Shown in pieces: positions 2,143-44,200 of a stretch of DNA of 64,000 nucleotides (positions within the stretch are counted from its first letter, which is position 1; each line of letters opens with the position of its first letter). Source of the DNA: a virus. The stretch spans positions 5,831 to 69,830 of IMG/VR virus record IMGVR_UViG_3300036985_004421; one strand, written 5' to 3'. The notes under the pieces were generated by a model. That model saw only the letters and a list, made by a program, of their open reading frames with translations. It made no database searches and had not been told where the DNA came from. A program made the position numbers and the translations under genes.

Positions 2143-2550
2143 CTATCTACAAAGTAGGCGGTCTAAATCTTCATCATTAGGTATGAGTTTGGTAAAAGCC
2201 CGAACAGCAAATTCCCATGCAAATACAGTGGGATAGGTTAGGTGCTGATTGGTTGGTGCTATTTTGTGTGAAATAGCAATGATGCGATATGCAGCAGCAT
2301 CAGCATCTTTACCTTCAATCTCAACGCCAATCATAAGTTGTGCAATTTGATTGCAGTATTGTTTTTCAACATCTGACAAGCAATTTTCGTTGATGGCATA
2401 GTTAGCGTATGCTTCATCGTATGAATGAGCGTGTAGTTGTGATAAATTAGGTACTTGTTGCATTGTAATGGGTATTAGGTACGAGGAATGATAGTGAGGT
2501 TCCAACACTACATTGGATTGCTCACTGGTGGCTACTGTCACAGCAGTCAT
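2143..2550 (-). CDS. hypothetical protein
   Basis: 135-aa ORF with ATG start. Confidence 0.6.
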   Translation of the reverse strand: MTAVTVATSEQSNVVLEPHYHSSYLIPITMQQVPNLSQLHAHSYDEAYANYAINENCLSDVEKQYCNQIAQLMIGVEIEGKDADAAAYRIIAISHKIAPTNQHLTYPTVFAWEFAVRAFTKLIPNDEDLDRLLCR

Positions 2551-2590
2551 AGCTCCCTATGCTTTGTTTCCGTAGCGTAGGGATAAGGCG

Positions 2591-2914
2591 TTAGCCTTGG
2601 TATTTATCAGTTTTAATCAGCAAAGAAATGAGCCAAGTTTTACTATCGTGTTGATACACGAAGTATGTCTTGGTTTCCCATAGTTTGGACACTTCAAGTA
2701 CAGGGATTGCGTACTTGTTAGAAATGTGATTCGGAGTGAACACATTACCAACGGTATTAGCAGCCTGTTTGAAAAAGTCAGACAAAGTTTCGGGTGACAC
2801 ATAACCTTCGAATACAAACTCCTTGTTGTCCATAGGATATACAAGGCTTGATTCGATACTGGTGAGTCCGAAGCGTACTTGGTAAGCATCGAACAATTGA
2901 GTGAGGTTTCTCAT
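2591..2914 (-). CDS. hypothetical protein
   Basis: 107-aa ORF; ATGA overlap with the upstream gene. Confidence 0.6.
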   Translation of the reverse strand: MRNLTQLFDAYQVRFGLTSIESSLVYPMDNKEFVFEGYVSPETLSDFFKQAANTVGNVFTPNHISNKYAIPVLEVSKLWETKTYFVYQHDSKTWLISLLIKTDKYQG

Positions 2915-3123
2915 ATCGCTGTGCTATTAAAGAGGATTCGGTCAAGTCTTGCGAATCTTTCCTCTTTGGTTAGTAATTCCGTGTTGATCACACGGTCAAT
3001 GCTCAAACCTGCTGCTTTAGCATCAGCCATAATAGCTGCATGCGTTCTGGGCTTTGCAGGTGGAGTTGTGAGTGTTCTCCCGTAAAGGATAACTGGCTCA
3101 GATATTCTTTGGCGCTTTGCCAT
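2911..3123 (-). CDS. hypothetical protein
   Basis: 70-aa ORF immediately downstream of the hammerhead ribozyme. Confidence 0.55.
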   Translation of the reverse strand: MAKRQRISEPVILYGRTLTTPPAKPRTHAAIMADAKAAGLSIDRVINTELLTKEERFARLDRILFNSTAI

Positions 3124-3152
3124 CTGAATTGGTATTTGGTTAAATGGTGTCT

Positions 3153-3219
3153 GCCATCATCAGTAATCAGGAAACACCCTGACTAGACCCACAATGCTTC
3201 ACAGCAGGTGGATTTCGGC
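3153..3219 (-). ncRNA. hammerhead ribozyme, type II topology
   Basis: RNA: GCC-GAAA-UCCAC...GUGGG-UC|UAGUCAGG...CCUGAUUA-CUGAUGA-U-GGC; complete CUGAUGA/GAAA/GUC core with all three stems; predicted cut between 3186 and 3185. Confidence 0.9.
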
Positions 3220-3221
3220 TA

Positions 3222-3647
3222 TTAGTAAGAGTTTAATTCATCAGCGTATTCAGCATGCCCTATGCAAATAGGACAGTAGTAGAACCCATTGGTATGTGTG
3301 TACAAAGGGGTATGGTTACCATTGCGGTTGCAAGCATAGCAGCGTAGCGGTGCTGGCGTTGTGGGTATGTGGATATACCCTACCACTCTTGGCATAGGCT
3401 TTGGCATAACAACAATAGGCTTTGGTTTAGCCACAGGTGTGTCAAGCTGCCCATCTGCAATGTAGAAAGCAGATACAGCTGCTACGAAAAGAGCAAGGAA
3501 ACAGGCAATTCCTAAGCATACTGTTGATTGCACCATAGGTATTAGCTGGAACGAACCAAGTGTTGTTATCCAAACTAAGGTTAGTGAGAATGTTGGTGCG
3601 ATAGCTGCGGCTATCACGTTGCGAACAAAGAAATATGTTGCTTTCAT
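3222..3647 (-). CDS. membrane protein with C-terminal Zn-finger-like domain
   Basis: two hydrophobic segments, Pro/Lys linker, CYAC...CPIC. Confidence 0.6.
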   Translation of the reverse strand: MKATYFFVRNVIAAAIAPTFSLTLVWITTLGSFQLIPMVQSTVCLGIACFLALFVAAVSAFYIADGQLDTPVAKPKPIVVMPKPMPRVVGYIHIPTTPAPLRCYACNRNGNHTPLYTHTNGFYYCPICIGHAEYADELNSY

Positions 3648-3735
3648 GCGTACTGTTGACGGTGTTTAGGCAGTTGTCGGCTGAGAGTGATAGTGAGTGT
3701 GCTATGACTACGCACTATCGGGTTATGGTCTGAAT

Positions 3736-3805
3736 CACGGACTTGGAACCGTGTCACTCTGAATAGAGTGAGGCCTTACAAGGGATATTCTCCCCTGTCC
3801 TCGGT
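3736..3805 (-). ncRNA. twister-like ribozyme candidate, circularly permuted, copy 1
   Basis: ACC-GAGGA-[CAGGGGA/UCCCUUG]-UAA-GGCC-[UCACUCU/AGAGUGA]-[CACGG-UUCCAAGU-CCGUG]; resembles twister L1 (UAA/GAG) and L4 loop. Confidence 0.65.
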
Positions 3806-3807
3806 CG

Positions 3808-4122
3808 TTACCAAGGGTGTTTACCCGAGGTAACAATAGACTGTACGGATTCGGCTGGCACATAGAATGTGTCACCAATCCATTTACCTTCAAGCATGCC
3901 AACGCACTTTTGCATTGCGGCTACACGTAGCTCGTGCGAAGGAAGCAAGTAGAAATGTTCGTACTGTTTCCACGTGCCATCCAACAAGCCTTGCTTCATA
4001 TCATCTGTGTCATAGAAGTCAGGACCAGTGATAGCAGTCGAATCAGGCGTTGTCATATCCAAGTACCACTTCTTTGGGTCAAGGACTACTTCGCTTGCTT
4101 TGATATTTGGTTCGTAATTCAC
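3808..4122 (-). CDS. hypothetical protein
   Basis: 104-aa ORF, GTG start preceded by TCACTATC; lies between the two twister-like motifs. Confidence 0.6.
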   Translation of the reverse strand: MNYEPNIKASEVVLDPKKWYLDMTTPDSTAITGPDFYDTDDMKQGLLDGTWKQYEHFYLLPSHELRVAAMQKCVGMLEGKWIGDTFYVPAESVQSIVTSGKHPW

Positions 4123-4203
4123 GATAGTGATTGCCTATTCTCGGCTCTTAAGGACTTCAAAGAGTTGCATACTGAGTAGTGAAAGCCTCACCATCGGTTG
4201 ATT

Positions 4204-4271
4204 ACTGGACTTGGAACCAGTCTGCAAATGCAGGGCCTTACAACCCACCACTAAGGTGGGCTGTCCTCGGT
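4204..4271 (-). ncRNA. twister-like ribozyme candidate, circularly permuted, copy 2
   Basis: ACC-GAGGA-[CAGCCCACC/GGUGGGUUG]-UAA-GGCC-[CUGC/GCAG]-[ACUGG-UUCCAAGU-CCAGU]; stems differ from copy 1 but pairing is kept. Confidence 0.65.
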
Positions 4272-4280
4272 ATGAAGCAA

Positions 4281-4652
4281 TTAGCAATAGACAGAGCACA
4301 AAGCTTCGTCCATTAACCTTAGCTGCTCGGCAATGTTGGGTGTGCTGGCCTTGATAGCCTCACACTTTTCGCGGAATAACTCTGCTGCTGTTTTGCGCTC
4401 TGGTATCATGCCATCTTGGTAGGCAGCTAATACCTCGTTGCTCAAAGCAAGAGCACGATTCTTACGCTGTATCAACGTGTATAACCTGCGTGCTGCTTGT
4501 ATCGTGTAATTAGCACTAGCTGTGCTGTTCGGCACACCTGACTTATACGACAATACCTTCACTTGGCTGTAGCGTGGCGTGAACTTGTAAACAAGGGTTT
4601 GACCATCTAATGCTACTACTCTCAACTCATGGGTAACTGATGCGTTTGCCAT
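4281..4652 (-). CDS. hypothetical protein (first gene of the leftward early operon)
   Basis: 123-aa ORF with ATG start. Confidence 0.6.
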   Translation of the reverse strand: MANASVTHELRVVALDGQTLVYKFTPRYSQVKVLSYKSGVPNSTASANYTIQAARRLYTLIQRKNRALALSNEVLAAYQDGMIPERKTAAELFREKCEAIKASTPNIAEQLRLMDEALCSVYC

Positions 4653-4779
4653 GTCTTACTGGGATGCCGTAAAAACTCTTGCGAGAGGTCAAGCATCGAA
4701 ACCTTTTGGGTAAATAGCACAGCCAGACGGTTACTCCACTACAGAGCATTACGCACAAACCATGCAATTAAATTTGTTT

Positions 4780-5160
4780 TATCGAAAGGAAAGCTTTAGC
4801 TTTCGCACACGCGGATATTTACCACATAAGTAATGATACAACCAACATCAGATTGGTGAATCACCACTATGCAAGACATTAACAGCATCAGCATTATCCC
4901 CGATTGGTGATAGTGACCCATCGGAAACCCGCGCTATACCTAGGAATAATACAATCAAATGTAATATACCTAGATACAATTGATAGAATAATAACTACTA
5001 ATATCTATCTATATATATATATGTGCGCGAGAAAAATAGTTTGAGTTGGATGTGTAAACTATATGCTGACTATATATGCAAAAAGATGGGATGGGGGGGA
5101 TAGACGAGAAGTGCAAAGGGTACGGGGGTTAAGGGGATGTGTCCCTCCACAGGTGATACT
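4780..5160. other. non-coding AT-rich then G-rich region; candidate genome terminus, packaging site or origin
   Basis: TATACCTAG x2 (4935, 4965), GATTGGTGA x2 (4851, 4902), (TA)n tract near 5010-5022, G-runs at 5088-5136, no ORF. Confidence 0.4.
4956..4963 (-). promoter_or_regulatory. possible Bacteroidota -7 promoter element (TACATTTG) for the leftward early operon
   Basis: matches TAnnTTTG upstream of 4652. Confidence 0.35.
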
Positions 5161-5202
5161 CTTATGCCTACGGATGATGGTATGGTATCCTTTGTAATGA
5201 TG

Positions 5203-5526
5203 TCACTCTAATAGGAAATCTTTGAACTCTTCATCAGATATGAGTCCATGTTTGTGCTTGATGAACATTTCTTTGATGCGATGTTCTTCTGCGATTGCAT
5301 TTGTTTCTCTTTGCTTGGTACGTTCGTTGAGGTCGTGGATGTAGTCATTGAGTTGAAGTTCTCTATTGGACCAATCAACGCATTGGGATGGTATGTCGAA
5401 GTGTTTGTAGTGTACCGGTGTAATTTTAGGTTCTGCTTGTTTATGGAAGCGGAGAGCCTTTAGGAATTTAATCATATTCTTTAGCTTCTTGGTATGCATC
5501 GAATGGGGATAGTCCTCTGGTTTCAT
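5203..5526 (-). CDS. hypothetical protein
   Basis: 107-aa ORF, overlapping-codon junction. Confidence 0.6.
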   Translation of the reverse strand: MKPEDYPHSMHTKKLKNMIKFLKALRFHKQAEPKITPVHYKHFDIPSQCVDWSNRELQLNDYIHDLNERTKQRETNAIAEEHRIKEMFIKHKHGLISDEEFKDFLLE

Positions 5527-5900
5527 TTGGATAGTTTTACTTTACTCATGTCCAGTAGGACAAATGAAGCTGATACGGATGCAGGTGTGCTTGGCTCGTC
5601 AAAGAGTGGGTGAGGTACTAAGGAGATTTCCATTTCATACTCTTCTGTATATCGTCCTGCGGCTTTGAGTCTTTTGATGTATTCTGCGTTTGTTTTTTTG
5701 CGATTGGCAGATTCCTCTTGGATGGCTTTATCGGTTAGGGCGCATGGGAATATGAATGACAGCCAGCCGTTGGAGTTTTTGAAAGCTTCGATGGAGTTGG
5801 TGTGAGTTTCGTCACCTTGGGAATTTCCACAGAATGCGTATTCCGGTAAGAGGTCATCGACCCCACGTTGTCTTTTGATTGTGTAGGTTTTCATTTGCAT
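5523..5900 (-). CDS. hypothetical protein
   Basis: 125-aa ORF. Confidence 0.6.
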   Translation of the reverse strand: MQMKTYTIKRQRGVDDLLPEYAFCGNSQGDETHTNSIEAFKNSNGWLSFIFPCALTDKAIQEESANRKKTNAEYIKRLKAAGRYTEEYEMEISLVPHPLFDEPSTPASVSASFVLLDMSKVKLSK

Positions 5901-6319
5901 TGTTTTGTGAGTGCATCTTCCAAGTTCCTACATGTTTTGCAGTTTGGGTTATTGCACAGGTTAAATTCTACGGACGATTGAGTAACGATACCTTTCTCTA
6001 TGCAGCCAGTTAGCATGACCATAAGTTTGGGTGCATCGGGGCTGGCCATGATGTCTTGGAGGAATGACATCAGCTTGTCTACGGTTAGTTCACCAATGGC
6101 TGAACCGTATGGTGCTTCTTTATCCTCAATCTGAGGAATGATGCCTTTCCCTAAAAATGGATTCTCTATGGGATCAGGCATTGGGCCGAACATGTGTAGG
6201 AACTGTTCTTTTTCTTTTTCGAGAAAGGCTTGCTCTTGCTCTAAATTGTAAATGTGCTGCTTGAGCGTCATTCCATCGGGAACGTCATTAAGGTCGATTA
6301 CCTTTTTCTTATCTACCAT
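5891..6319 (-). CDS. hypothetical protein with C-terminal Cys cluster
   Basis: 142-aa ORF; CNNPNCKTC. Confidence 0.6.
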   Translation of the reverse strand: MVDKKKVIDLNDVPDGMTLKQHIYNLEQEQAFLEKEKEQFLHMFGPMPDPIENPFLGKGIIPQIEDKEAPYGSAIGELTVDKLMSFLQDIMASPDAPKLMVMLTGCIEKGIVTQSSVEFNLCNNPNCKTCRNLEDALTKQCK

Positions 6320-6324
6320 GATTT

Positions 6325-6804
6325 CTATTTGTTTCTGCTTCTATACTTTAGTTTGTATTTACGGTAGTGCTTATTCCAGATACGTTCAAGTTCTGCTTCG
6401 CGCTCTTCGCGTTGCTTACGTCTGTCAATCTCGCGTTGAATGAACTCCGTCCAGACCTTCTCATATTCCACTTCACCTTGGATTGGCACATATGGCACGA
6501 CTTTGTTTGACTCGTTGACTAGCTGCTGCATTAGCCCAACACCGGGTTCTATGTCCTTGCCAGCTTCAATCCATTGGAATGTATCTGAGTAAGCTTCATC
6601 ATTGAATGCTTTGTGTACTTCATCAGGAATAGAATCGTACTTGTGTTCCCATGGAAAGTACATGGGATTGGCCTTAACGATGTTATTCATTTTTTGGTAC
6701 ATGGCAGAGCCAACGTGTGTGCACATAGCTTCTACTGACCACACCCATATAACGTCTGCAGGTACGTCACTCAGGTCAAATTTGATTGGATATTCTGTTT
6801 TCAT
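6325..6804 (-). CDS. hypothetical protein
   Basis: 159-aa ORF. Confidence 0.65.
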   Translation of the reverse strand: MKTEYPIKFDLSDVPADVIWVWSVEAMCTHVGSAMYQKMNNIVKANPMYFPWEHKYDSIPDEVHKAFNDEAYSDTFQWIEAGKDIEPGVGLMQQLVNESNKVVPYVPIQGEVEYEKVWTEFIQREIDRRKQREEREAELERIWNKHYRKYKLKYRSRNK

Positions 6805-9238: not shown

Positions 9239-9517
9239 ATGATTCTATTACAGGTTGATTCTATTGCTACTGCAGAACGCATCAGTCAACTTACGGTAAA
9301 TGGTCTTTTGGCGCTGGCCGTAGTTATGCTTGGAGTCACATGTACTTACCTCTATAAACAACTTCGGGATATGCAGAAGGATGAAGTTAGTCGGGCTGAG
9401 GAGCGAACTGAAAAAATGATTGCTATTTCTACCGAAACAAAAAACGCCTTTCAGAACTTAACTGTAACAGCCACAGAGATTGTGGAAATTGTACGGGAAT
9501 TGAAATATAAACCATAG
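9239..9517 (+). CDS. single-TM coiled-coil protein (holin-like candidate)
   Basis: TM segment GLLALAVVMLGVTCTYLY followed by a charged coiled coil; start reassigned to 9239. Confidence 0.5.
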   Translation: MILLQVDSIATAERISQLTVNGLLALAVVMLGVTCTYLYKQLRDMQKDEVSRAEERTEKMIAISTETKNAFQNLTVTATEIVEIVRELKYKP

Positions 9518-9521
9518 TATC

Positions 9522-9773
9522 ATGAAATCAAACGTCAAAGAAATTTATGCTAAGTGCGACCAAGAGTTAGACGGGTTGCTCTGTACCATAAAAGATTTTA
9601 ATCAAAGCTTTCCATCATCAGAACTGAATACTAATAAAAAGCATGAGGTTCACAAAGAGGAACACGATAAAGCTTACTCAGAATACGTAAGCACACTGCA
9701 GCGATTCACGGTTCCAAGATTCATTATCGACTTGATTACCCTTGGGTTATTCTCCAAATACATCTACAGCTAA
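9522..9773 (+). CDS. hypothetical protein
   Basis: 83-aa ORF. Confidence 0.55.
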   Translation: MKSNVKEIYAKCDQELDGLLCTIKDFNQSFPSSELNTNKKHEVHKEEHDKAYSEYVSTLQRFTVPRFIIDLITLGLFSKYIYS

Positions 9774-32244: not shown

Positions 32245-35200
32245 ATGGATGAAGAATTGTTGCAACAGTTACTTGACGAGCAAGCTGCTCAAGAAGGACA
32301 AGTACAAACTCAAACGGCAACCGCACCTGTGCAAGCCGAAGTTCCCACCCAACAAGTAGGAACTCAAATTAGCCCTATGAGAAACCCATTCATTACGCAA
32401 CAGCGTAGGGATAGGGTTCCAACCAATAGCTGGATGGATGTAGTGATAGATGATCCAGTATCATCTGTGAAAGATTCCCCTGATGCCAAACATGTAGAAA
32501 CGTTGAGTGATGAAGAAATCGCTCAGCGTTTGGAGTTTTTCGCCAACCCATCTAGCAATCCACAATGGATGAAAGAAATGGAGCAAGACTCTGCAGGGTT
32601 TTTCAATGCGCGTAATGCCACCATTGAAGAAGCTGCAAAGCGTGAGAAAGAAATTAGTGGCAAGGAAAAAGACCCTAATGACTTCTGGAAGGAATACAAT
32701 GGCCAGTTTGATGATGGCTCTGTTGGTAAAAAAGAACAGGACAAACGCAAGCTTGATACCTACTCTGCCAAAATGAAAGAGCAAGGTTCCTCTGATGAAG
32801 AAGTCGGAAACTTGGAATCTATTTGGAATGAATTGAAGAAAGCGAAAACAGGCGTGGAGTTAATACCACACGCTTTGGTCAATGCTGTAACTGGTGTGCA
32901 AGAAACCATACACGACATGTCTATGGATGTAGTGTCGATAATGTATGGTTTAACTCCAAAAGAAACATTGACGTTCAAGGCTGTGATGATGGACGGTGCT
33001 ACGGCAAAGTTCATGGCTACAGGAGAGCGCAAAGATTTGAAAGCAGACATATATGACCGTTTCAGAGCAGGCTTGACGGAATATATGAATCAAGAAAATG
33101 ATACTGTAGGAGCATTACCTACTAAGACATTCAATAAATCATGGGGTGAGGGTGATTATGTTGGGTCTTTAGTTGCAGGTTTTGGTGGTACAATGGGCCT
33201 TGTTCCTTCGGCTGTTGTGGGTGTAGGTACAATGGGATATGGTATGGTGCCATACATGGCAGGTATGGCGGAATCTGATAAGGCTGTCAATTCTCGTTTA
33301 GCTACTGGAAAAGAATTAGCTGACGCTTATCGCGATGGCGATAATGACCAACTAATGTCCTGGACGACCAGCTCTATTGTTGGTTATATTGAAAAACTAG
33401 GGTTAAAAAAGTTAGGCAAAGGAATCGAAGAAGCATTTAATGGTAAAGCATTAAAGGATAAAGCAGTTCGATTCTTAAGCGACTCTGGCATTCAAGGTGC
33501 AACTGAAACATTCCAAGGTGGTATAGAGCACGTTGGTACTGCGTACAATAAAATCAAATTAGCCAATCCCGAAATGAGTGATGCCGAAGCTATGGCCAAG
33601 GCTGTCAAGGAAGGTGTATTATGGTATGGTTCTGGTGAAGCGTTCGAAACATTTGCTACTACAGCTCTAGGTGTGTCATACATGACGGGTGCTTCTCATG
33701 CTGCAGGTAAAGTATGGAGAAAGGCTACTGAAACTCAAGAGCAAAAGCTGGCCGCTAAACTGGATGACCCAAATGTTTCAGAAGCTAGTAAGACTATTCT
33801 CCGTGACAAGTTCAATCAGTTAAGGCAACAAGCATCTGCTGAGTACCAACAAGAGCGTACAATCTTCAAATCGTTATCAGAAGAAGAGCAGTCAGAGTTA
33901 GGTTCTTTGGCTAGAAAAGTAAAAGATGCGGGTCTAACATTAGCTGTACTTGACCCAGAGGTTGACCAAGATGCTATTCAAATTGCAGAACAAACCAAAG
34001 GAGAGTTATTGGCTCGTATTGATGCAATTAAAGCGCCTGTAAAAAAACAACTGTTAGAGAAGGATAAGGAGAAGCTTCGTAGTATGGGAGTTTATACTGT
34101 ACCAATGGTTGATGGTGTTGTAAATCTTAATGCTAAAACGCAGCTTCATACAGAAGAGGAACAGAAGATTGCTGCAAAAGCTATTGACGAGATTATACAG
34201 ACGGGGGTTAAAGAGAAGTTGCCTATACCTCAAATTGCAGCAAACATAGAGGCCTCTGGTCACATGGTAGGCGATGGGATATTGTTCACTACTCAAGAGT
34301 ATGTGGAAATGGCTACTACTAAAGCATTGCCATCACTGATAGAAGCATTTGGAGATAAGACCAGTGCTAAGAATGTAGCAGTAGCAACTACAGAACTGCC
34401 TATTGAAGTGTCAACTGAAACTGCACCAGTAGAAGAAGTTGCTTCAACTACAGCTGTAACTGAACCAATTTCAAATGAAGCTGTAATTGCTGATATCGAA
34501 CAAAGGAGAAGTGAGGAATTGGAATCAAATGGTTTGAATCGATTACTACCACTGAATATAGATGATGATCCTGTTTTGCAAAAAAAAATTGACCTTCAAA
34601 AAGAAATTGAAACTAAGTATGCTACTGAACTTTCTCAAGTTAAAGTACAAGCAGTAAAAACTCCAAGTACTAATGCACTAGTACCGCCCACAACATCCAA
34701 AGCTGATGAAGTAATGGCTGCTGCTAAAGCTGCTATCGAAGGAGAGCGTGAAGTAGATGATTTACCCTTTGGCGTGAGTTCCGAAGCAAATAAAGAAAAT
34801 GAGGCTGTGGCTACTGCCAGTGAGGAAATACAGGCTGAATCCGAATCTGAGTTAAATAAAGAAGAGGAACCCGTTGCTGTAAAAAAAGCACCTGCTAAAA
34901 AGATTTCCAAACCTAAAGCACCTGCCAAACCAAAAGCCACCAAGAAACCAAAGGCCACTACTAAAAAGCCTGTAGCCAAGGAAAAGGAAAGTGCCCCAAC
35001 TGTAACAAAGGAAGTTGCACCAGTAGCCGAATTACCAACCGACCCCGAAGCACGTAAAGAAGCAATTAAAGCGCGGAAAGCGGAGCTTATGAAGGGTATA
35101 GCAGAGCGATGGACAAGCAACAAATCTGGCATTGCTTCCTTGCCTGAGAACCAATCAGATGAAATGCGTCAGGACGTTGATGCTATTATTGAATTGGCCA

Positions 35201-38200
35201 AGTTGAGCATAGAGGAAATGGGCCAGTCACTCCAAGAGTTCGTGGACGAAATGGTAGTTGCCTTTGGAAAGAAGCACCCAAACATTACACAGCTCGCTAC
35301 TGATGTTTACAATAGTGTAAGTCTAGGTGCTGATACAGCTACCAATGAAGTAAACGTATGGGTGAATGAATTTTTGAATGCTGAACCTACTATTGAAAGT
35401 AGTCAAGCAATGCCTGTAGCAGAAAATGAAGAGCAACGGAAATTACGTAACTCTATTCTAGCTGTAGTCGATAAAGCAATGCTTGCCGGTGGTGAATGGC
35501 TGCGTGAAAAAGACTTTAAGACTATCGGAGTAAACAGCCGTATGCGCAACTTTTTCAATAACCCTCATGCGTATATCATGATGAATGCGATTGATGGTTA
35601 TTCAAGGAATTTGAAAGGCTACTCATTCATGAAAACTCTTCTGACCAAAGACGAAGCAATGAACATCATGCAGAATTTCGTTGAGGAAATTGACAAGATG
35701 GAAGAGCGTACTGGATTTAAGCTAGATAGTAAACGCATTAAAGCTCCATCGCACAATGATGTCAATGCAATAGTAGAAGGGTTCTTTAAGCAATTCCAAG
35801 ATGCATGGATAAATAAAGACCCTGAGAGTTATGCCATCTTTGACCAGTATGCACAATTAGTTAGGGGTATTCCATCCATTAAGCCATCATTCCAAATGGC
35901 AGGACCAAATGAATGGTCAGACATAGGATTGAAGAGATTGGTTACAGGCCTATTCACAGAGTCAGGATTGATGCTAGATCCAGAGGACATTACTCAAACC
36001 TTACAAAGCATAGCTGCTAGTGTGCCGAGAGAAGGTGGTAATAAAGAATGGATCAAGCTCATGCGCTCTATAGCCAACGGTAAAAAAAGCCTAGAGCAAG
36101 ATATAGCTGAACGTATGCTTAATCGTATTTCTGCACTGGTTGACCTTAATGCACAGAATGTAAACGATAGCGGAGAGCTTAAAGCTATCATCAACACATT
36201 GGCTAATATGGGTACTGACCAAGTAGTGGCCAGTGTCATAGGCACAGACGGAGTAGTACGCAGAGAAGTAATGAATGTATCTATGGCGCCAAAGGAGATT
36301 GCTTCTAATGTGCTAGGTATGATTGAGAAGTACATGAGCCAATCACGGGCTATAAGCGCATTCAATTCGCTCATTACTGAATACAAAAATATCAGTATGG
36401 AAATTACAGCACAGATTAAAGCTGGTCGTCCATTAACCGTAGCGCAAGACGTTGCTTATTCACGAAGATTGCTTGAACTGTACCATCAGCGTATCATCCA
36501 ACCTTACGGTGGTAAGATGGATATTAAGGGTGACTATGTAGGCGAAGTGATTAAGTCTATACAAGAAAAAGAATCAACCACACCTACGTGGATTCGCGTA
36601 GCTGGCATGCTTCAAATTTTGGATAATGCACAAGCGAAACAGAGAATCAATAGCAACAATACAATTGATGTACTGGAAAGCACTCGCCCGTATTATGAGT
36701 TGCTAGGCAAGGTAATGGTAGAAGCAGAGCCTAATGCTACATCATGGAGAAATGCAGATGGCGAAAACGTCACAGCACAAGGCCCTAGAACCCACGTAGA
36801 CTTGGTATCTGATAGCATGAACATCCCTACGGAAAAGGGTGGTACTACACCTGCAGAGAAGATGCTCAAAGTGGGCTTCTTTCAAAACAATCCAATACTC
36901 AAGTTTTGGAATAAGACTAAAGCTGTAGGTCGCCAAAAATGGAACGAAGGAAGTTTCAAGAAGGAGTTTGGTATGTCCATAGATAAAATGCGATCGGATG
37001 GAATACTTGCGGATAACCTAGTTGCATTCTTTGAAGGAACTAAAGACGGATATCAGCACATGTATATGCTGAATGGTGACCGTGACACGCGCTATATGTT
37101 CAATGCACCACTAATGAATGTGGACCAACTTGCGGAGCAATATGGCATAATCAACGGAAAATTCGATTCTAACTCACCCATAGTAAAGGCATTTGAAAAG
37201 CGTGCTGCAGATGCCGTGGCTCTAGGTGTAAGTAAAAAAGACGGATTGCTATTGAATGAGGAAGGGCTAAAGAGATTGAATGCAACATACTACATTCAAT
37301 TCAAAATAGCAGATGGCAAATTTGTGGCTGATGGCGATTTGACTTTGAAGCATAGGTTAAATGCGACCAATACGTTGCTAAAAAAATTCGAAGAGTTGAA
37401 TAAACAATGGGTGCAATATGATGGTATGTCATTGCGCTATGTGGATGCTGTTCAAGTTATGGCACGTAAAAATCCAGAGCTGGCTGAATTATTCAATCAA
37501 AACGTAGATGCCAATACACGTATGCGAAGATTAGCTGCGTTGTATGAGGGTAATAATACCATCAATGAGTTGGCGCTAACTGATGTGTTTGTAGGTGACC
37601 CAATCTATTTGCGCCCAGGGGCAAAAGCTTTGAAGGATGCAAAGAGTCAATCTACACGAGGTATGAACGTAGCATCTACAGTCGGTCCAGTTTATGTAGT
37701 TACGTTGAATGAATTACCTGCTACTGATTCTGGCGGATTCATGAACTCGTATATGAGTGAGCGTGCAAGCAATGGTGTAATCAATGGACTTGGGCCTAAT
37801 ATGAAGATAGGGTTCTTTGGAGTAGAACGCCATGGTAAAAATGCTGGACATGGCATGTCATTAAAAATGGCTACCATGAATGCGGTGCGAGGTAAAGATG
37901 GTAAGAACAAAATGGAATACGACCACGGAACTTCTGACCAGTACGCAAAGATGGCAGAGCTGATGGATAAACTCGAAGCTCACATTATGGCCACTACTAA
38001 AAGTGATGTACGTCCGAATATATTGATTATTCCACCTTCATCACAAAAGGTTTCCTCGCTTAGATTAAAGCCAATCAATTTGAATGAGCTTAGTTCTTTG
38101 AGTTTCAATGAAAGCAACTTCAAAAAGATTACACCGGAAACAGCTACGGTGAACTTTAACATCAACCATGATATGACTGATGGCGCTTATGCTAAACGCC

Positions 38201-41200
38201 AATTGGTACAGATGCTTTCCATTATACAGGAAGCGGTAGAAGGTAAAGAGCTACCTGACCGTAAGCAATTCATTGACAAGTTTCAAAACTTGATGGTGGA
38301 TGTAATGAAGGAGCAAATGCGTAAGGAGTTTGGTAGCACTACCAATATCGGCCAAGTAGATGCACTAGCTAAAAAGTTAATTGAGCAAGTGTTTGGAAAT
38401 GATATGTCATTCAGTACGAAAGCTGCACTACAGCATCTAAAGAACTTGTATGAGAATGAGAACGTTGACCACCACATAGAGGACGAGAATATCTATGGTA
38501 CAGCATTAGGTAAGCTAACTCAAACGTTTAATCAAGTAGCCACTACAATGCAGCTTGACGGTGGCTCACTTCAAACATTTGCCGACCTTGAAACCGACCC
38601 TGATAAAAAATTGAAATGGGATGGCCTGACTACACCAGAGGTAATGGTTCCACCTGCAATGGGTAATGTCGGTGATACGATTATTCTTGCGCGTGTACCA
38701 TCATCAGGTTCTGAATCGATGTTTGTTGGTAAGATAGTAGGACACTTACCTGCTAATATGAATGGAGCTAAAGTACCTGCAGAGTTTTTGCTGTACTCTA
38801 ACTCTGACCACGATGGAGATATGCTTCATGGCTTCCTAAAAAATCAATCAGGACCAGCCAAGCAAGCATTTGTAGACTTCATGATGTCAGATGAAGCAAT
38901 GCTTTCACAGACCTTCTTACGCAAGCGCGACCACCCATTGACCCTAGATGCATTGGGAACAGCCTTGAAGCAGGCAGGGTTAGCAGAAGTGCCCGTAAAT
39001 CTGAATAGTGTAACAGGAAGGATGGCAGTTCTGGACAGCATGAATGCATCTACTTCTGCTATTGGGGTGTTTGCCAATGCTAAAAAGATATTCACCAACT
39101 TAACTGCTTCGGGCAAGAGTACTGTGGAGGAAACGCACATTCTCCTAAATGGAGTAATGGTTCCAGCGAGAAAGTACAGCCATAAAAACCTGACCATGAT
39201 GGGTGAATTGCTACAGGCTGCACTAGATAAGTTTGACAAGCTTCTTCTCTCTCGAATGGGAATTGATATGTCAAACATCAATGAAATATCATTGCTTGCC
39301 AATTTGGAAACGATAGATGGGGATGTAATGTCGTATGCTGATGTCATTCAGTTACTGCAGACACCCGAAATGAAAGCCTATGTAGCTGGCATCAATGAAT
39401 TGATTGGTCCATTTGAAGGAAAAGATACTGCATGGCCAGGTGATAAGACCACAATACTAGACGAGTTAATTGCTAGTGCTCAAGCTAAAGGCAATGATTT
39501 GAATGTGGATATCCTCAGCTTGATTCGCACAGCAGTAGTTGAGGGCGCTGCATTAACCTCTGTGGCATCTATGACTAGCATGGATAAGGGCATCAAATAT
39601 GGCATGGGCCATGTGCTTCATTTGATGGATATGTATAACTCATTGAAAGCAGGTGGTAAGGGTTACCTTGAGTTATTTGATAACCCATTAGGAGAACACC
39701 ATCACAAGGCTCTTGATATGTTTATCAAGACTATGCAAAAGCTTACGCTATCGTATGGTGAAGTAGCTATTGGTACTGCAAAAAATCTTTGGAACGCAAT
39801 CGGGTTTCAAGAAAGAAGCCCAAGGCATTGGGATAAGCTTCTGACCATTAACAATAAGATGCTGAATGCCTCTGTGACGTTGGGTAAGTACGACAATCCA
39901 TCAGCGTTTGTTAATTCATTTGGAGAGTTTCTGTATGGGTTAAAGCATGGTAGCGATGTGATGTACCCAATTAACTCAACTACAGCAGAAGAGATTGACA
40001 GCAGGGCTACTCTACAAGCTATGGAAATTGATGCTATCAATGCGCGTGAATCGTTGAAAGACAATCCAGTTCCTGTAATGCGTGAAGCTTATTTGAAAAA
40101 GATTCAAGACTATGTGATAGCACAGAACATGGTCAATAAGCTCACGAACAATCCTTTCATACGCAACATGTCCGTGTACAAGGATAAGGCAACAGGTAAA
40201 ATCAATGTCGGCTTAAACAAAACAGCTAGAGGAATGAATGGCATTGATAAGCAAACCTTGCTTGATTCCTTTTCAGAGTTACCTACGGAATTTCAAGATA
40301 GGCTGCATGACTACTTGCTACTAAACTCAAACTCTAAGATTACCCCATCTTCCTTATGGTCACTATTGCCTAACAGTTCTGTAGAGCGATACAATACTGC
40401 AAGTAGATTGATGGAACAAAACAAAGGTCAGGTTACACCTACTGTTCGTCAAAACGTAGCTGCGTTCATCGAAGCTGTAATGTTGGATAGCCTGGACATG
40501 ATAAAGGCTATTCGTATCAGAGCAGGTAGAGCATTTGAAAACACTTTCGTTTATGAAAAACCTCAATTATCAGAGGACGAAAAAACTTCTTTGCTCAACC
40601 GATTGGAAACATACTTCCCATTGTCAGCTCAATCTATACTCGATCAGTCGGGTGCAGTGTTTAAGGTAACACATCCTTCCACAAGCTTTGGAACAAAATT
40701 ACTTGGAAAGATGATGTTTAATGGAACTCCATTGATACGTGTAGCGAATGCTAATGGTGATGGACATCGCTATTTTGTACTGGCTAAATCAGATGGAGCA
40801 TTGACTACTGCAGGTGGAGTATTCACGAAAGGTGTTGCTCAAACGTATGTGGAAATCACGGCAGGCGTAAATGCTGCTGCAGCAAAAGGTACCAATGGAT
40901 TTGTCATGGACGGAGATACCCGTTCACAGTACAATGCAGATGCTGTTTCAGAGGATATGCGTACACTATTCAAAGACCGTTTCAAAAATGTAAATGCAGA
41001 TTTGAAAGAAGGAGTGCGCATGGAAACAGGAAATCACATGGGCACGATGAATGCGCCAGCTTCTGCTACACGAACTATCGCAAGTGACCCTAAGCTATAC
41101 AATAAAATACTTAAGCGATTACAGGAGAAGTTTCCGAACATTCAAGTCATGGAGTGGGAAGCCTATCAAGCAAAGTATGGTGCTGCTCCGGGTATTGGTC

Positions 41201-44200
41201 AAGCGCGTCAAGCTACTATGCTAGATGGTATCGAACGTGCCGTTGCTTGGTCAATGTCAGAAGGACATATTGATACACCACCACACGAGTTTGCTCACCA
41301 TTATGTATGGATGTTTAAGAATCACCCATTGATACAAAGGGGTATTGAATTGTATGGTTCAGAAGAAGCTTTGGTAGACGCGATTGGCAAAGACTATGTA
41401 CGTCAGATAAACGGTAATGCAGTACAGCAAGCCTACTCTAAATTAGTAGCTGGCATGAAGGGCTTTGTTGAAAACCAAGCGGCTAAAGAAGGGTATGCGC
41501 AAGCGTTCTGGACATACATCAGGTCAATCTTTGGTTCTAATGACATTGCTCAGGTACTGGCATCAAATATGCTTGAGGGTAAAGAGCTAGAAGGTGGAGG
41601 TACATTAGCTAATGAAGTAGGCAACATGGTTGGTCGTACACAGCTACGTTCTAATGCTCGGCAGTTTATGGATAGCGATGTAATTCCTCATAAGGTCAAC
41701 AGGGCTGATGCTGATGTGAATAATTCTACTCTTCAATTTCGAATTGCATCATTAAACATTCTAGGTAAGTTGATTCAAAACGACATCCAAGCTCAACGAT
41801 TACAGCAGGGTATTGGTAGCAGTTTCTTATTCGATGTAATTCAGAATGTTCCTGGGGTGAGTTCTACAGATATGTGGAACACAGAGCAATTCTCAAAAGA
41901 GATAACAGCTGCTTTAAAACAGATGGTTTTCAAACCTGCAGACGAGTATTGTAAATCATCAATACTTTCTGGTGACATCAAAAACATTGACCCGTTGTTT
42001 ATGGCAAATAGCTTTGAAGCTGACGTAGCCAAGTTGCTAAACTTGAATACTAACATGGGTGCTAATTCTGGTATGGTAAACGGATTGATCGCTTTGATGT
42101 ACAATCCTAGCGACCCATTGAATAGTGCATCTATGATGGGCAAAGGTCTAAGTGCAATGGAGCAAGCAGAAGTACGTCAAGCTTACAATGCCATTATTCG
42201 CACGCATGCCATGATTGAGCATCAAAAAGTTGCATCTACTCAATTGAACATTGCCGAAGGGGAAGTAGCGGAAACCTCTAAGGTGCTAACTACAATCAAT
42301 GATTCTATTGCAAGCAAAGCGTCCATACTCAAAAAGATATGGTTGGCCAGCTCTACTGGCGATGGATTTGTAAGCAGCATTGGTAAAGGATTCAGAGAAG
42401 CTTACAAGTTTTATCAGGATAAGTTTGACCGACTTGATGTGAAGGTTTTTGCGATCACAGGCGATGAAAGTGCTCCGTTGTATCAAGTGCTTGTGCAATC
42501 ATTCAAAACAGCACAGAATAGGTACAACATGCTTTATCTAGGCACTACTTCTAACAAAGGAGCAGGGTTCATGTGGCAAGATGGTATCAAGAACATCAAA
42601 GGACTAGGTGATATTACGTATGACACAGCAGGTCAAGGTGTGGTATGGAAATTAAAAGATACCACTCCTGTGGAAATGATGGTAGCTGATGTCACTAATG
42701 GCATTACTACTTACGTTCCGGTTACACAACCAATGAGTGTAGGTGAGAAAGTGTGGTTGTCCGTAATGGCCCAACAAGTAGATGCTAAAACAGGCACCAG
42801 TTTCCGTGATGTATTGAAAGATGGTGGCATAGGGTTTGGCACTAAGCGTAATGCTACAGACACCATGGAAACTAAGTATCGTTTTACCGAAGCACAGATT
42901 GTGGCCATAGAAAACGAAGTCGCAGCTTATCAAGGCGGTGTACTTAATAGAGAGCTAGTTCCTGCAATACGTCAAGTGTTTGATAAGATGGTACCGTACA
43001 TCAACCAAACTTACAAGGAACTGACAGGACTAGATATGGAAATCGACCCTGACTACTTCCCAAAAACCATGTTTAATTCAGAAAAACTATTAGGGTCGGG
43101 TGAGCACGTGACTGGTGAGTGGGATAGAGTTATTTCTCCATTGGGTATTATTGGTTCATCAGTAACGCTACAAGCTCAAGATATCTTTAGCATGATGCAT
43201 GACTACACTAAAAAAGGTGCGGAGTTTCATGCCTACGCTATTCCTATTCGTAATGCTGGAAAACTATTGAAAGGCAAAGATGCCGAAGGAGTTTCCTTGC
43301 ACAATGCATTGATGAAAGTAGGAATGGGAGAGCACTTGACTGATGTTACCAAACACTTGATGGGAGTAGTCAATCATGCACATACGTTAGGTAGTGGTGA
43401 CCGCAAGTTAAATGAGCAAAATGAAATTGAGTTTCAACACAAAATGCTTCATAAACTCCATGCACGCTTGACCACATTTGCATTAGGTCACAATATGGTG
43501 GTAAACGCTACTCAGTTACTAGGTGGACCTATGGCCAGTCAACGCATTCCATGGAAGTACTTACAGTCGGATGTATTAAGGCTTGACAAAACAATCATGT
43601 CACTAGGCGAAACCTTAAACATGAATAAGCTATTTACGATGGATAGCGTATTTGATTATGCGAACACTACCATGCCAGAGTATCATGAAATGTTAGCGCA
43701 TAGTGCCGACTTGTACGCTCGATTCAAAACCAAGTTGATTGACAGCTCACAGGAAGCCACCATGCAATCCGTATCAGGTGGTAAGGAAGATAAGATTCTA
43801 TGGATGATAAAACCTTCAACGTTATTGGCAGGTATTACCTACATGGACTTACAAGTTCAAAGAACCATCTGGAATGCAGCTAAGAAAATGACAGCAGATT
43901 TGCAGCCACAATTAGCTGTAGGTAGCACAGAGTATTGGGAACACGTAGCTGCTGTAGCAGAGGATGTAACTCGTGAAACTCAAGCTTCGTTTGATAATGT
44001 GAATCGAACTAGAGCACAGAACAATCCAGGATATAACTTCTGGTCATACTTCCAACGGTTCTCTTCTCAATCTGTAGCTATGGCATCACAGATGAAAAAG
44101 GCACATTACCAATCGGTTCACAATCCTACTCCCGCAAATAGAATGCATGAGTATAGAGCTGCCGCTGCATTTCTTTTAGTAAACTCAGCTGGTTATGCTG

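What the first reader, a model, noticed from the sequence alone, without database searches (positions are those of the whole stretch)
3736..4271. Two covarying copies of an atypical twister-like motif (possible new twister variant)
Seen in sequence: both copies keep ACCGAGGACAG, UUGUAAGGCC and GGUUCCAAGUCC invariant, while three hairpins change sequence and length but keep pairing. That is a natural covariation signal. Established twister features match: U|AA in L1, G-A-G-G opposite it, loop CC able to pair with GG (T1), and an AAG(C/U) L4 loop. The strand order (GAGG first, P1 closed by a hairpin) fits a P5-type permutation. Atypical points: only 4 nt (GGCC) lie between UAA and P3, so P2 would be 1-2 bp instead of 3-4, the L4 loop ends in AAGU rather than AAGC, and no P5 is shared by both copies. 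It may be a minimal twister variant or a new class.
Basis: partly seen in the sequence, partly recalled or inferred. Interest (0 to 1): 0.85.

Follow-up and report, generated by a model that had tools for sequence, protein, structure and literature searches.

The report
Short-stem twister ribozymes between phage genes
Two short RNA elements between small genes of an uncultured tailed phage are copies of the known twister self-cutting ribozyme, in a rarer form with an unusually short central stem that the standard RNA catalogue mostly misses; they probably cut the phage's multi-gene transcript right after stop codons.

Summary
Both copies lie on the minus strand (4271..4204 and 3805..3736) and share the three stated blocks; three hairpins differ but still pair.

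They are not a new class. Both give full-length matches to Rfam Twister-P5 just below its cut-off: 32.7 and 29.8 bits against 37.6.

Relatives fetched from phage and metagenome contigs give 39 copies of the same sub-form, 30 of them distinct. In these, 94.9% of pair cells are paired, and all three pairs of the T1 pseudoknot, which was not in the search model, show compensatory changes. The catalytic positions are invariant.

The GAGGA and AAGU features are common in phage twisters that do pass Rfam.

What is unusual is that only 4 nt lie between UAA and P3:
- two Watson-Crick P2 pairs plus an A.C position;
- one invariant T2 pair.

Only 2 of the 39 copies reach Rfam's cut-off.

In 26 of 30 distinct copies the ribozyme starts between 1 nt inside the upstream stop codon and 9 nt after it. 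A type II hammerhead follows the next gene.

The most likely role is cutting the polycistronic phage transcript. Cleavage itself is untested.

The scan has noted other Rfam-missed phage twisters on other DNA, but no look-alike of this sequence.

The parts
4204..4271 (-). Twister ribozyme copy 2, type-P5 order with P3. A(-3)CC 4271-4269; L1 GAGGA 4268-4264; P1 4263-4255 with 4249-4241; U(-1) 4240; AA 4239-4238; GG (P2) 4237-4236; CC 4235-4234; P3 4233-4230 with 4225-4222; P4 4221-4217 with 4208-4204; L4 loop 4216-4209.
   Evidence: Rfam Twister-P5 32.7 bits, model positions 1-58 of 58, E 1.5e-4 in the local search; model R1 47.1 bits; fold z -4.11.
3736..3805 (-). Twister ribozyme copy 1, type-P5 order with P3. 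A(-3)CC 3805-3803; L1 GAGGA 3802-3798; P1 3797-3791 with 3785-3779; U(-1) 3778; AA 3777-3776; GG (P2) 3775-3774; CC 3773-3772; P3 3771-3765 with 3760-3754; P4 3753-3749 with 3740-3736; L4 loop 3748-3741.
   Evidence: Rfam Twister-P5 29.8 bits, model positions 1-58 of 58, E 8.3e-4 in the local search; fold z -3.87.
4239..4240 (-). Predicted scissile bond of copy 2, between U4240 and A4239 on the minus strand.
   Evidence: Inferred from the alignment of UAA to the Rfam consensus and from the U-A cleavage site described in the twister review PMC5408937. Not tested.
3777..3778 (-). Predicted scissile bond of copy 1, between U3778 and A3777 on the minus strand.
   Evidence: Same inference as for copy 2. 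Not tested.
4281..4652 (-). ORF A, 123 aa, no family. Its TAA stop ends 9 nt before copy 2.
   Evidence: no PHROG or Pfam match.
3808..4122 (-). ORF B, 104 aa with an uncertain GTG start, no family. It is bracketed by the two twisters and its TAA stop ends 2 nt before copy 1. In the related phage contig L002 an unrelated ORF sits in its place.
   Evidence: no family.
3222..3647 (-). ORF C, 141 aa, with a hydrophobic N-terminal half and Cys pairs near the C-terminus. It starts 88 nt after copy 1. The hammerhead starts 1 nt after its stop.
3145..3220 (-). Type II hammerhead ribozyme in the next intergenic gap of the same transcription unit.
   Evidence: Rfam RF02276, 41.7 bits against a cut-off of 37. 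The syntenic copy in L002 scores 42.8 bits.

Best explanation
Both elements are twister-fold self-cleaving ribozymes. Their strand order is type P5: P2 strand, L1 GAGGA, a closed P1 hairpin, U|AA, P2 strand, L2, P3 hairpin, then the P4/L4 hairpin. No P5 helix is present.

They belong to a phage sub-form in which the strand between UAA and P3 is only 4 nt (G-R-Y-C). This gives two Watson-Crick P2 pairs, a third position that is usually A.C, and a T2 contact reduced to one invariant C-G pair.

Inferred mechanism: as the minus-strand early transcript is made, each ribozyme folds and cuts between U and A (4240|4239 and 3778|3777). The upstream mRNA then ends in the P1 hairpin with a 2',3'-cyclic phosphate, about 30 nt after its stop codon. 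The downstream mRNA begins with a 5'-OH followed by the P3 and P4 hairpins and a leader of about 85 nt. Together with the hammerhead after the next gene, this would split a polycistronic phage transcript into single-gene mRNAs with structured ends.

Shown here: the fold, its conservation and its position. Inferred only: cleavage itself and its effect on expression.
For: (1) Rfam. Both copies give full-length Twister-P5 alignments of 32.7 and 29.8 bits. They are the only non-hammerhead hits with E below 0.1 in the whole window. A copy of the same sub-form in L004 scores 40.1 bits, above the cut-off.

(2) Relatives. Model R1, built from the window's copy 1 and the syntenic L002 copy, found 39 copies (30 distinct) in 16 sources.

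(3) Pairing. On that alignment 94.9% of 749 pair cells are standard pairs, against 68.3% in shuffles and at most 56.5% in slid controls. Of 26 pairs, 21 have double-sided changes.
- T1, which was not part of the model, is 100% paired and compensatory at all three pairs: AU17/GC13, GC27/AU2/GU1 and GC29/UA1.
- The P2 pair at -2/+2 is CG25/UA5 with no exception.

(4) Catalytic and tertiary positions are invariant in 30 of 30: the first G and the A of L1, U(-1), A1, A2, and L4 U1, A5, A6, G7. At least 13 of these 30 were found by the model only, not by a pattern that fixes those letters.

(5) Permutation. L001 carries the same core in type-P1 order with a P5 hairpin.

(6) Position. In 26 of 30 distinct copies an upstream ORF stops from 1 nt inside the ribozyme to 9 nt before its first base. 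Eleven overlap by 1 nt and nine abut. The window's copies are at 2 and 9 nt.

(7) Neighbours. A hammerhead above its cut-off lies in the next gap.

(8) Literature. Ribozymes flanking single prophage genes were shown to cut about 2-kb transcripts in vitro, and processing of polycistronic RNA was proposed (PMC3088659, passages; PMC6765202, passages).
Against: - The window's copies are below Rfam's curated cut-off, and only 2 of the 39 copies of the sub-form reach it.
- The review PMC5408937 (section read) describes P2 as four Watson-Crick pairs and reports a suggestion that adding or deleting P2 pairs might disrupt the active site. Here there are two.
- The first T2 pair is never a standard pair: C.U in 27 and U.C in 3 of 30. 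McKinley et al. 2024 (PMC11662667, section read) found that non-wobble mismatches in that 2-bp pseudoknot lowered cleavage in their type-P1 pools.
- The alignment was fitted to the nested helices, which inflates their pairing. Many copies are orthologues from related contigs (L199, L200, L201, L204, L207), so the counts are not independent events.
- No cleavage or RNA-end data exist for this phage.
Confidence: 0.8

Rival explanations
1. They are crippled or very slow twister relatives. The fold is kept, but the 2-bp P2 and the mismatched T2 make them poor cleavers. They would then serve mainly as structured 3'-end or 5'-end elements, or as conserved linkers for gene-cassette exchange.
For: The review reports the expectation that P2 length matters. 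Mismatches in the 2-bp pseudoknot reduced cleavage in high-throughput tests. The Rfam scores are below the cut-off. Homology blocks between the window and L002 begin exactly at the ribozyme 5' ends (4271 and 3805), while the enclosed ORF B is replaced.
Against: All catalytic and tertiary-contact positions are invariant in 30 of 30 distinct copies, and T1 shows compensatory changes at three pairs. That conservation would not be needed for a plain hairpin or a linker. The same study found P2 imperfections and P2 length well tolerated.
Confidence: 0.12
2. They represent a distinct ribozyme class, or twister-sister, that only resembles twister.
For: Three membership features are not fully met: the Rfam cut-off, the four-pair P2 and the two-pair T2.
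Against: Rfam gave no twister-sister hit at E up to 10 in 3000-4800, whereas Twister-P5 aligned over its full length. The T1 pseudoknot covaries, and twister-sister shows no evidence of pseudoknots (PMC5408937). The fetched loci contain a graded series of L2 lengths (6, 5 and 4 nt) with the same L1 and L4 cores. A copy of the sub-form passes Rfam's twister cut-off.
Confidence: 0.03
3. Chance similarity, or a coding feature of the short overlapping ORFs (3735..3902 and 4135..4299 on the minus strand).
For: Short ORFs of 54-55 aa overlap both elements.
Against: There are 30 distinct relatives with compensatory base-pair changes in four helices and one pseudoknot. The exact motifs occur only at these two sites. 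The elements sit between longer ORFs, directly after their stop codons.
Confidence: 0.01

Closest known systems
Type-P5 twister ribozyme (Rfam RF02684, clan CL00120; class described by Roth et al. 2014, which I could not open and know only through the review PMC5408937)
   Same: Strand order; U|AA facing G-A-G-G-N; T1 pseudoknot; P4/L4 with the U..CCAAG core; optional P3 (reported in 78% of annotated twisters, PMC6154101); full-length model alignment.
   Different: L2 5' strand of 4 nt instead of 6 (the Rfam consensus printed reads UGCg + GC). Two Watson-Crick P2 pairs plus A.C instead of four. Only one Watson-Crick T2 pair. Scores are below the cut-off for 37 of 39 copies.
The common phage Twister-P5 form nGCA-GAGGA ... 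UAA-UGC-AC ... GGUUCCAAGUCC, seen here in IMG/VR contigs
   Same: The same L1 GAGGA and L4 UUCCAAGU. Relative to the Rfam consensus, the outer T1 pair is U-A instead of C-G. Same phage intergenic arrays.
   Different: That form has a 3-bp P2 that covaries (GCA/UGC, GGU/ACC, CGC/GCG, ACA/UGU) and a 2-bp T2, with A or G facing the loop U. It passes Rfam: 27 Twister-P5 hits at or above the cut-off in 12 loci. The window's form lacks that purine and one P2 pair.
Tandem hammerhead ribozymes flanking single genes in prophages (Perreault et al. 2011, PMC3088659)
   Same: Self-cleaving ribozymes bracket individual small phage genes of varying identity. Processing of long phage transcripts is the proposed role. 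A type II hammerhead is part of this very array.
   Different: A different ribozyme class. Those arrays were shown to cut in vitro; this one has not been tested.
Twister-sister ribozyme (RF02681)
   Same: Vaguely similar loops and helices (PMC5408937). One lies about 250 nt upstream of the type-P1 short-P2 twister in L001 (56.5 bits).
   Different: No match to the window's elements at E up to 10. Twister-sister has no pseudoknots and cuts the opposite strand.

Membership tests
Twister ribozyme, type P5 (RF02684) | Covariance-model score at or above Rfam's gathering cut-off (37.6 bits) | tested here: not met
   32.7 and 29.8 bits, both full length (positions 1-58 of 58). E is 1.5e-4 and 8.3e-4 on 1.8 kb, and 0.0054 and 0.03 on the whole window. 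Of 39 copies of the sub-form, 2 reach the cut-off: L004 at 40.1 and L203 at 38.5 bits.
Twister ribozyme, type P5 (RF02684) | Helix order: P2 strand, L1, closed P1, L1 with the cleavage site, P2 strand, L2, optional P3, P4/L4 | tested here: met
   Rfam alignment, folds, covariation in P1, P3 and P4.
Twister ribozyme, type P5 (RF02684) | Conserved L1: N-A-A on the cleaved strand, G-A-G-G-N opposite (catalytic A and G) | tested here: met
   U-A-A and G-A invariant in 30 of 30 distinct relatives and in both window copies. The roles of A and G are taken from PMC5408937, Table 1.
Twister ribozyme, type P5 (RF02684) | T1 pseudoknot: three Watson-Crick pairs between L4 and the L1 3' strand | tested here: met
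   100% paired, with compensatory changes at all three pairs. T1 was not part of the search model.
Twister ribozyme, type P5 (RF02684) | T2 pseudoknot: conserved GC in L2 pairing with two bulged L4 nucleotides | tested here: inconclusive
   C(+4) with the L4 G is C-G in 30 of 30. The other position is C.U in 27 and U.C in 3, never a standard pair. An alternative register (+2,+3) would give standard pairs but leaves a C between T2 and P3.
Twister ribozyme, type P5 (RF02684) | P2 of four Watson-Crick pairs (PMC5408937, section read) | tested here: not met
   Two Watson-Crick pairs: -1/+1 is CG in 30, and -2/+2 is CG in 25 and UA in 5. The third position is A.C in 27 and A-U in 3. It is G-C in 2 of 7 further copies.
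Twister ribozyme, type P5 (RF02684) | Site-specific self-cleavage at the U-A step | not testable with these tools
   No RNA run is listed for this DNA. No assay was possible.
Twister-sister (RF02681) | Match to the family model; no pseudoknots | tested here: not met
   No hit at E up to 10 in 3000-4800. The T1 pseudoknot covaries.
Hammerhead type II (RF02276), the neighbouring element | Covariance-model score at or above the cut-off (37 bits) | tested here: met
   41.7 bits at 3220..3145 on the minus strand.

The most novel reading that the evidence does not exclude
The short-P2 form may be an undescribed natural 'minimal-core' twister. Its central P2-T2 stack has shrunk from six Watson-Crick pairs to three, and it is still under strong selection.

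If it cleaves well, this overturns the structure-based expectation that P2 length is fixed, and it implies a rearranged T2 region: a pyrimidine-pyrimidine or A.C layer.

Its first base is fused to the upstream stop codon. A terminating ribosome would therefore cover P2, L1 and part of P1, which could couple cleavage to translation of the upstream gene.
Probability: 0.25. Interest if true: 0.55.

Novelty: new variant of a known kind. Interest (0 to 1): 0.38.

Why it matters
- **Annotation.** A recurrent phage twister sub-form is almost invisible to Rfam's cut-off (2 of 39 copies). Ribozyme counts in phage genomes are therefore underestimates, and the family model could be widened.
- **RNA structure.** Natural, selected twisters with a 2-bp P2 and a one-pair T2 would test how much of the central stack the active site really needs. 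They would also offer a smaller scaffold for engineered ribozyme switches.
- **Phage biology.** Ribozymes fused to stop codons and bracketing exchangeable gene cassettes give a concrete system for asking what self-cleavage does to early transcripts.

None of this is a new kind of element. The class, its phage association and the proposed processing role are all in print.

Tried and rejected
On inspection only L002 and L004 were real. The pattern was too loose and the scan was wasted.
- **** (20-base pattern on the genomes of 185,579 species): 10 stretches. None has the L1 motif in place, so I read all ten as chance. No copy of this exact core was found in cellular genomes at that stringency.
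- **** (L4 followed by AYCGAGGAC, for the type-P1 and type-P3 orders): 3 stretches. Two lie in coding-looking sequence without UAA. Only L001 is real.
- **L003 and L205** were set aside as probable chance matches. L194 and L195 were mis-parsed by my regular expression and are ordinary 3+2 twisters.
- **** (blastn of 2500-6500 against named phages): no match.
- **** (PHROGs and Pfam on ten small minus-strand ORFs): no family for any.
- ****: no RNA holder listed for this DNA.
- **P5 helix**: tested and not found.
- **Hybrid twister idea**: I considered that the two window copies could reassemble a hybrid twister on the excised ORF-B RNA. I dropped this as a general rule, because the two copies flanking an ORF in L004 have incompatible P2 strands.
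- **Papers I could not open**: Roth et al. 2014 and Eiler et al. 2014. Supplements are closed. The P2-length and mismatch figures of McKinley et al. 2024 (their Supplementary Figures S12 and S14) and the original twister alignments may already contain short-P2 forms. My 'undescribed' is therefore provisional. It rests on searches and on the passages read.
- **Not used**: protein homology, structure and complex tools. They do not bear on an RNA element.

Full report
**What is there**

On the minus strand the window carries two elements of about 70 nt, at 4271..4204 and 3805..3736. Both read ACC-GAGGA, P1 hairpin, U-AA-GGCC, P3 hairpin, then P4 closed by the loop UUCCAAGU.

The whole 69,830-base virus record holds only these two copies.

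The hairpins differ in sequence and length but pair. Folding the minus strand alone recovers P2, P1, P3 and P4, with z = -4.1 and -3.9. The plus strand folds less well, with z = -1.9 and -1.4.

**Identity**

Rfam at its curated cut-offs reports only a type II hammerhead, at 3220..3145 on the minus strand (41.7 bits against 37).

With E-value reporting, both elements align over the full length of Twister-P5 (RF02684). The scores are 32.7 and 29.8 bits against a cut-off of 37.6. P3 is treated as an insertion and two P2 positions as deletions. Nothing else in the window comes close.

So this is a near-threshold match to a known family, not an orphan.

**Relatives**

Several pattern scans contributed:
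- An exact-core scan of IMG/VR found a syntenic phage (L002, two copies), L004, and L001. In L001 the same core appears in type-P1 order with a P5 hairpin.
- A scan requiring only GAGGAC, GTAA and GGTTCCAAGTCC in P5 order gave 46 stretches, from which 54 distinct copies were parsed.
- The P1-order scan gave 14 stretches. About ten look like type-P1 twisters. I did not verify these individually.
- A metagenome scan aimed at the 4-nt form gave 19 stretches.
- A last viral scan with the Rfam-consensus T1 letters gave 7 more copies in 6 stretches.

A covariance model built from the window's copy 1 and its L002 orthologue then found 39 copies, 30 of them distinct, in 16 sources. It included copies that match none of my patterns.

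**Test of the fold**

On those 30 distinct sequences, 94.9% of 749 pair cells are standard pairs. Column shuffles give 68.3%, with 0 of 500 as high. Slid partners give at most 56.5%. Of 26 pairs, 21 show double-sided changes.

The alignment was fitted to the nested helices, so P1, P3 and P4 lean toward the model. T1 was not in the model, and it is the strongest result. Its three pairs are AU17/GC13, GC27/AU2/GU1 and GC29/UA1, with no unpaired cell.

The following positions are invariant in 30 of 30:
- the first G and the A of L1;
- U(-1), A1 and A2;
- the L4 positions that the review assigns to the U.A pair, the A.A pair and T2.

The structural roles are taken from PMC5408937, sections read. 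Many copies come from related contigs, so these are counts of sequences, not of events.

**What is ordinary and what is not**

GAGGA together with UUCCAAGU is the usual state in phage Twister-P5 elements. Relative to the Rfam consensus printed, the outer T1 pair is U-A instead of C-G.

In most copies the last loop U faces an A or a G in L2, as in UGC-AC or UGC-GC. These copies pass Rfam: 27 hits at or above the cut-off in 12 loci. So 'AAGU instead of AAGC' is a compensated T2 variant, not an oddity of this phage.

P3 is also typical. It is reported in 78% of annotated twisters (PMC6154101, passage read).

The length of the strand between UAA and P3 is unusual:
- 6 nt in the Rfam consensus (four P2 pairs plus GC);
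- 5 nt in the common phage form (three covarying P2 pairs plus RC);
- 4 nt here (G-R-Y-C).

In the 4-nt form the positions behave as follows:

| Position | State in 30 distinct copies |
|---|---|
| -1/+1 | C-G in 30 |
| -2/+2 | C-G in 25, U-A in 5, no exception |
| -3/+3 | A.C in 27, A-U in 3 |
| +4 | always C, facing the loop G |

At -3/+3, two of the seven later copies have G-C. One later copy has U.G at -2/+2.

Three registers remain possible:
- (a) A 2-bp P2, plus a T2 made of a pyrimidine-pyrimidine layer and C-G.
- (b) A P2 of 2 bp plus an A.C layer, with a one-pair T2.
- (c) A 1-bp P2 with T2 formed by +2 and +3.

I favour (a) or (b), for two reasons. The C that pairs with the loop G directly abuts P3 in every form I looked at. 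The review describes T2 as stacked between P2 and P3. In addition, -2 changes together with +2. I cannot separate (a) from (b).

Only 2 of the 39 copies of this form reach Rfam's cut-off.

**Context**

The record is a tailed phage, with terminase large subunit, portal and virion proteins.

The minus-strand block from 1 to about 7,600 consists of small ORFs without any PHROG or Pfam family. Ten were tested.

The order along the transcript is:
1. ORF A;
2. a 9-nt gap, then twister 2;
3. an 81-nt leader, then ORF B;
4. a 2-nt gap, then twister 1;
5. an 88-nt leader, then ORF C;
6. a 1-nt gap, then the hammerhead;
7. ORF D.

Across the sub-form, 26 of 30 distinct copies have an upstream ORF whose stop ends from 1 nt inside the ribozyme to 9 nt before it. 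Eleven share the last A of the stop codon with the ribozyme's first base, and nine abut it. For the other 4 copies no such ORF was found. This may partly explain why that A is invariant.

No P5 helix forms from the flanks.

Between the window and L002, similarity blocks begin exactly at the first base of each twister: 4271-4134 at 88% and 3805-2927 at 79%. ORF B is replaced by an unrelated ORF in L002.

**Mechanism**

The steps shown are the twister fold, its selection and its placement. The steps inferred are:
- self-cleavage at U|A by the general acid-base chemistry described for twister;
- as a result, an upstream mRNA ending in the P1 hairpin with a cyclic phosphate, and a downstream mRNA starting with a 5'-OH before P3 and P4.

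Processing of long phage transcripts into single-gene mRNAs is the role proposed for tandem hammerheads in prophages, which did cut in vitro (PMC3088659). The same role is proposed for bacterial twisters and hammerheads generally (PMC6765202).

I put about 0.8 on 'twister-fold ribozyme that cleaves' and about 0.6 on transcript processing as its purpose.

The main rival is a weakened copy. The review relays a suggestion that changing the number of P2 pairs could disturb the active site. High-throughput data show that mismatches in the 2-bp pseudoknot lower cleavage, although P2 imperfections and P2 length were tolerated.

**Novelty and limits**

The class, its permutations, its phage association and the processing idea are known.

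The consistent 4-nt L2 form, and the fact that Rfam misses it, may be new. However, I could not open Roth et al. 2014 or Eiler et al. 2014, and supplements are closed. An earlier description therefore cannot be excluded.

This scan has already reported other phage twister variants missed by Rfam on other DNA. It holds no look-alike of this sequence.

No RNA data exist for this phage. Nothing here shows cleavage.

Noticed in passing
window 4134-4271 and 2927-3805 against L002: Similarity between this phage and the related contig L002 starts exactly at the first base of each twister (88% and 79% identity). The ORF between the twisters (4122..3808) is replaced by an unrelated ORF in L002, and the C-terminal part of ORF A (4450-4272) is also not matched. 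The ribozyme-plus-leader units look like conserved boundaries of exchangeable gene cassettes.
   Followed up: partly
window 859, 1568, 2490, 3689, 4123, 4909, 55804 (minus strand): The octamer TCACTATC occurs 7 times, all on the minus strand, against 2.4 expected; 0 of 100 shuffles reach 7. One copy lies in the leader after twister 1 and one abuts the GTG of ORF B. Twister 2's leader and the L002 leader carry similar TCACTA motifs. It could be a phage promoter or another leader signal.
   Followed up: partly
window 3145-3220 (minus strand): A type II hammerhead starts 1 nt after the stop codon of the 141-aa ORF. It is conserved in L002 at 9505-9580 (42.8 bits).
   Followed up: yes
L001 1779-1856 and 2101-2175: A twister-sister ribozyme (56.5 bits) lies about 250 nt upstream of the only type-P1 copy of the short-P2 twister found. 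That copy carries a P5 hairpin.
   Followed up: partly
L158, L203, L199/L200, and L148+L159+L173 (one 98-kb contig): Dense ribozyme arrays. L158 has 5 Twister-P5 and 4 hammerhead hits at or above the cut-off within about 6 kb. L203 has 6 twisters in 2.8 kb, of which 4 pass Rfam and 3 were found by R1, with one counted in both. L199 has 5 short-P2 copies in about 2 kb. One 98-kb phage contig has at least 8 pattern matches.
   Followed up: no
L004 8245-8331 (minus strand): A second twister flanks the same small ORF as L004's short-P2 copy. It has a 3-bp P2 (GGU/ACC), a 17-nt insertion between L1 and P1, and pyrimidines only (CUCC) where the T2 purine-C is expected.
   Followed up: partly
window 3222-3647 (minus strand): The 141-aa ORF downstream of twister 1 has a hydrophobic N-terminal half and two Cys-x-x-Cys-like pairs near its C-terminus. 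It has no PHROG or Pfam match.
   Followed up: no
window 32245-44661 (plus strand): A 4138-aa ORF in the structural block has no PHROG match at E up to 1e-5. Not examined here.
   Followed up: no
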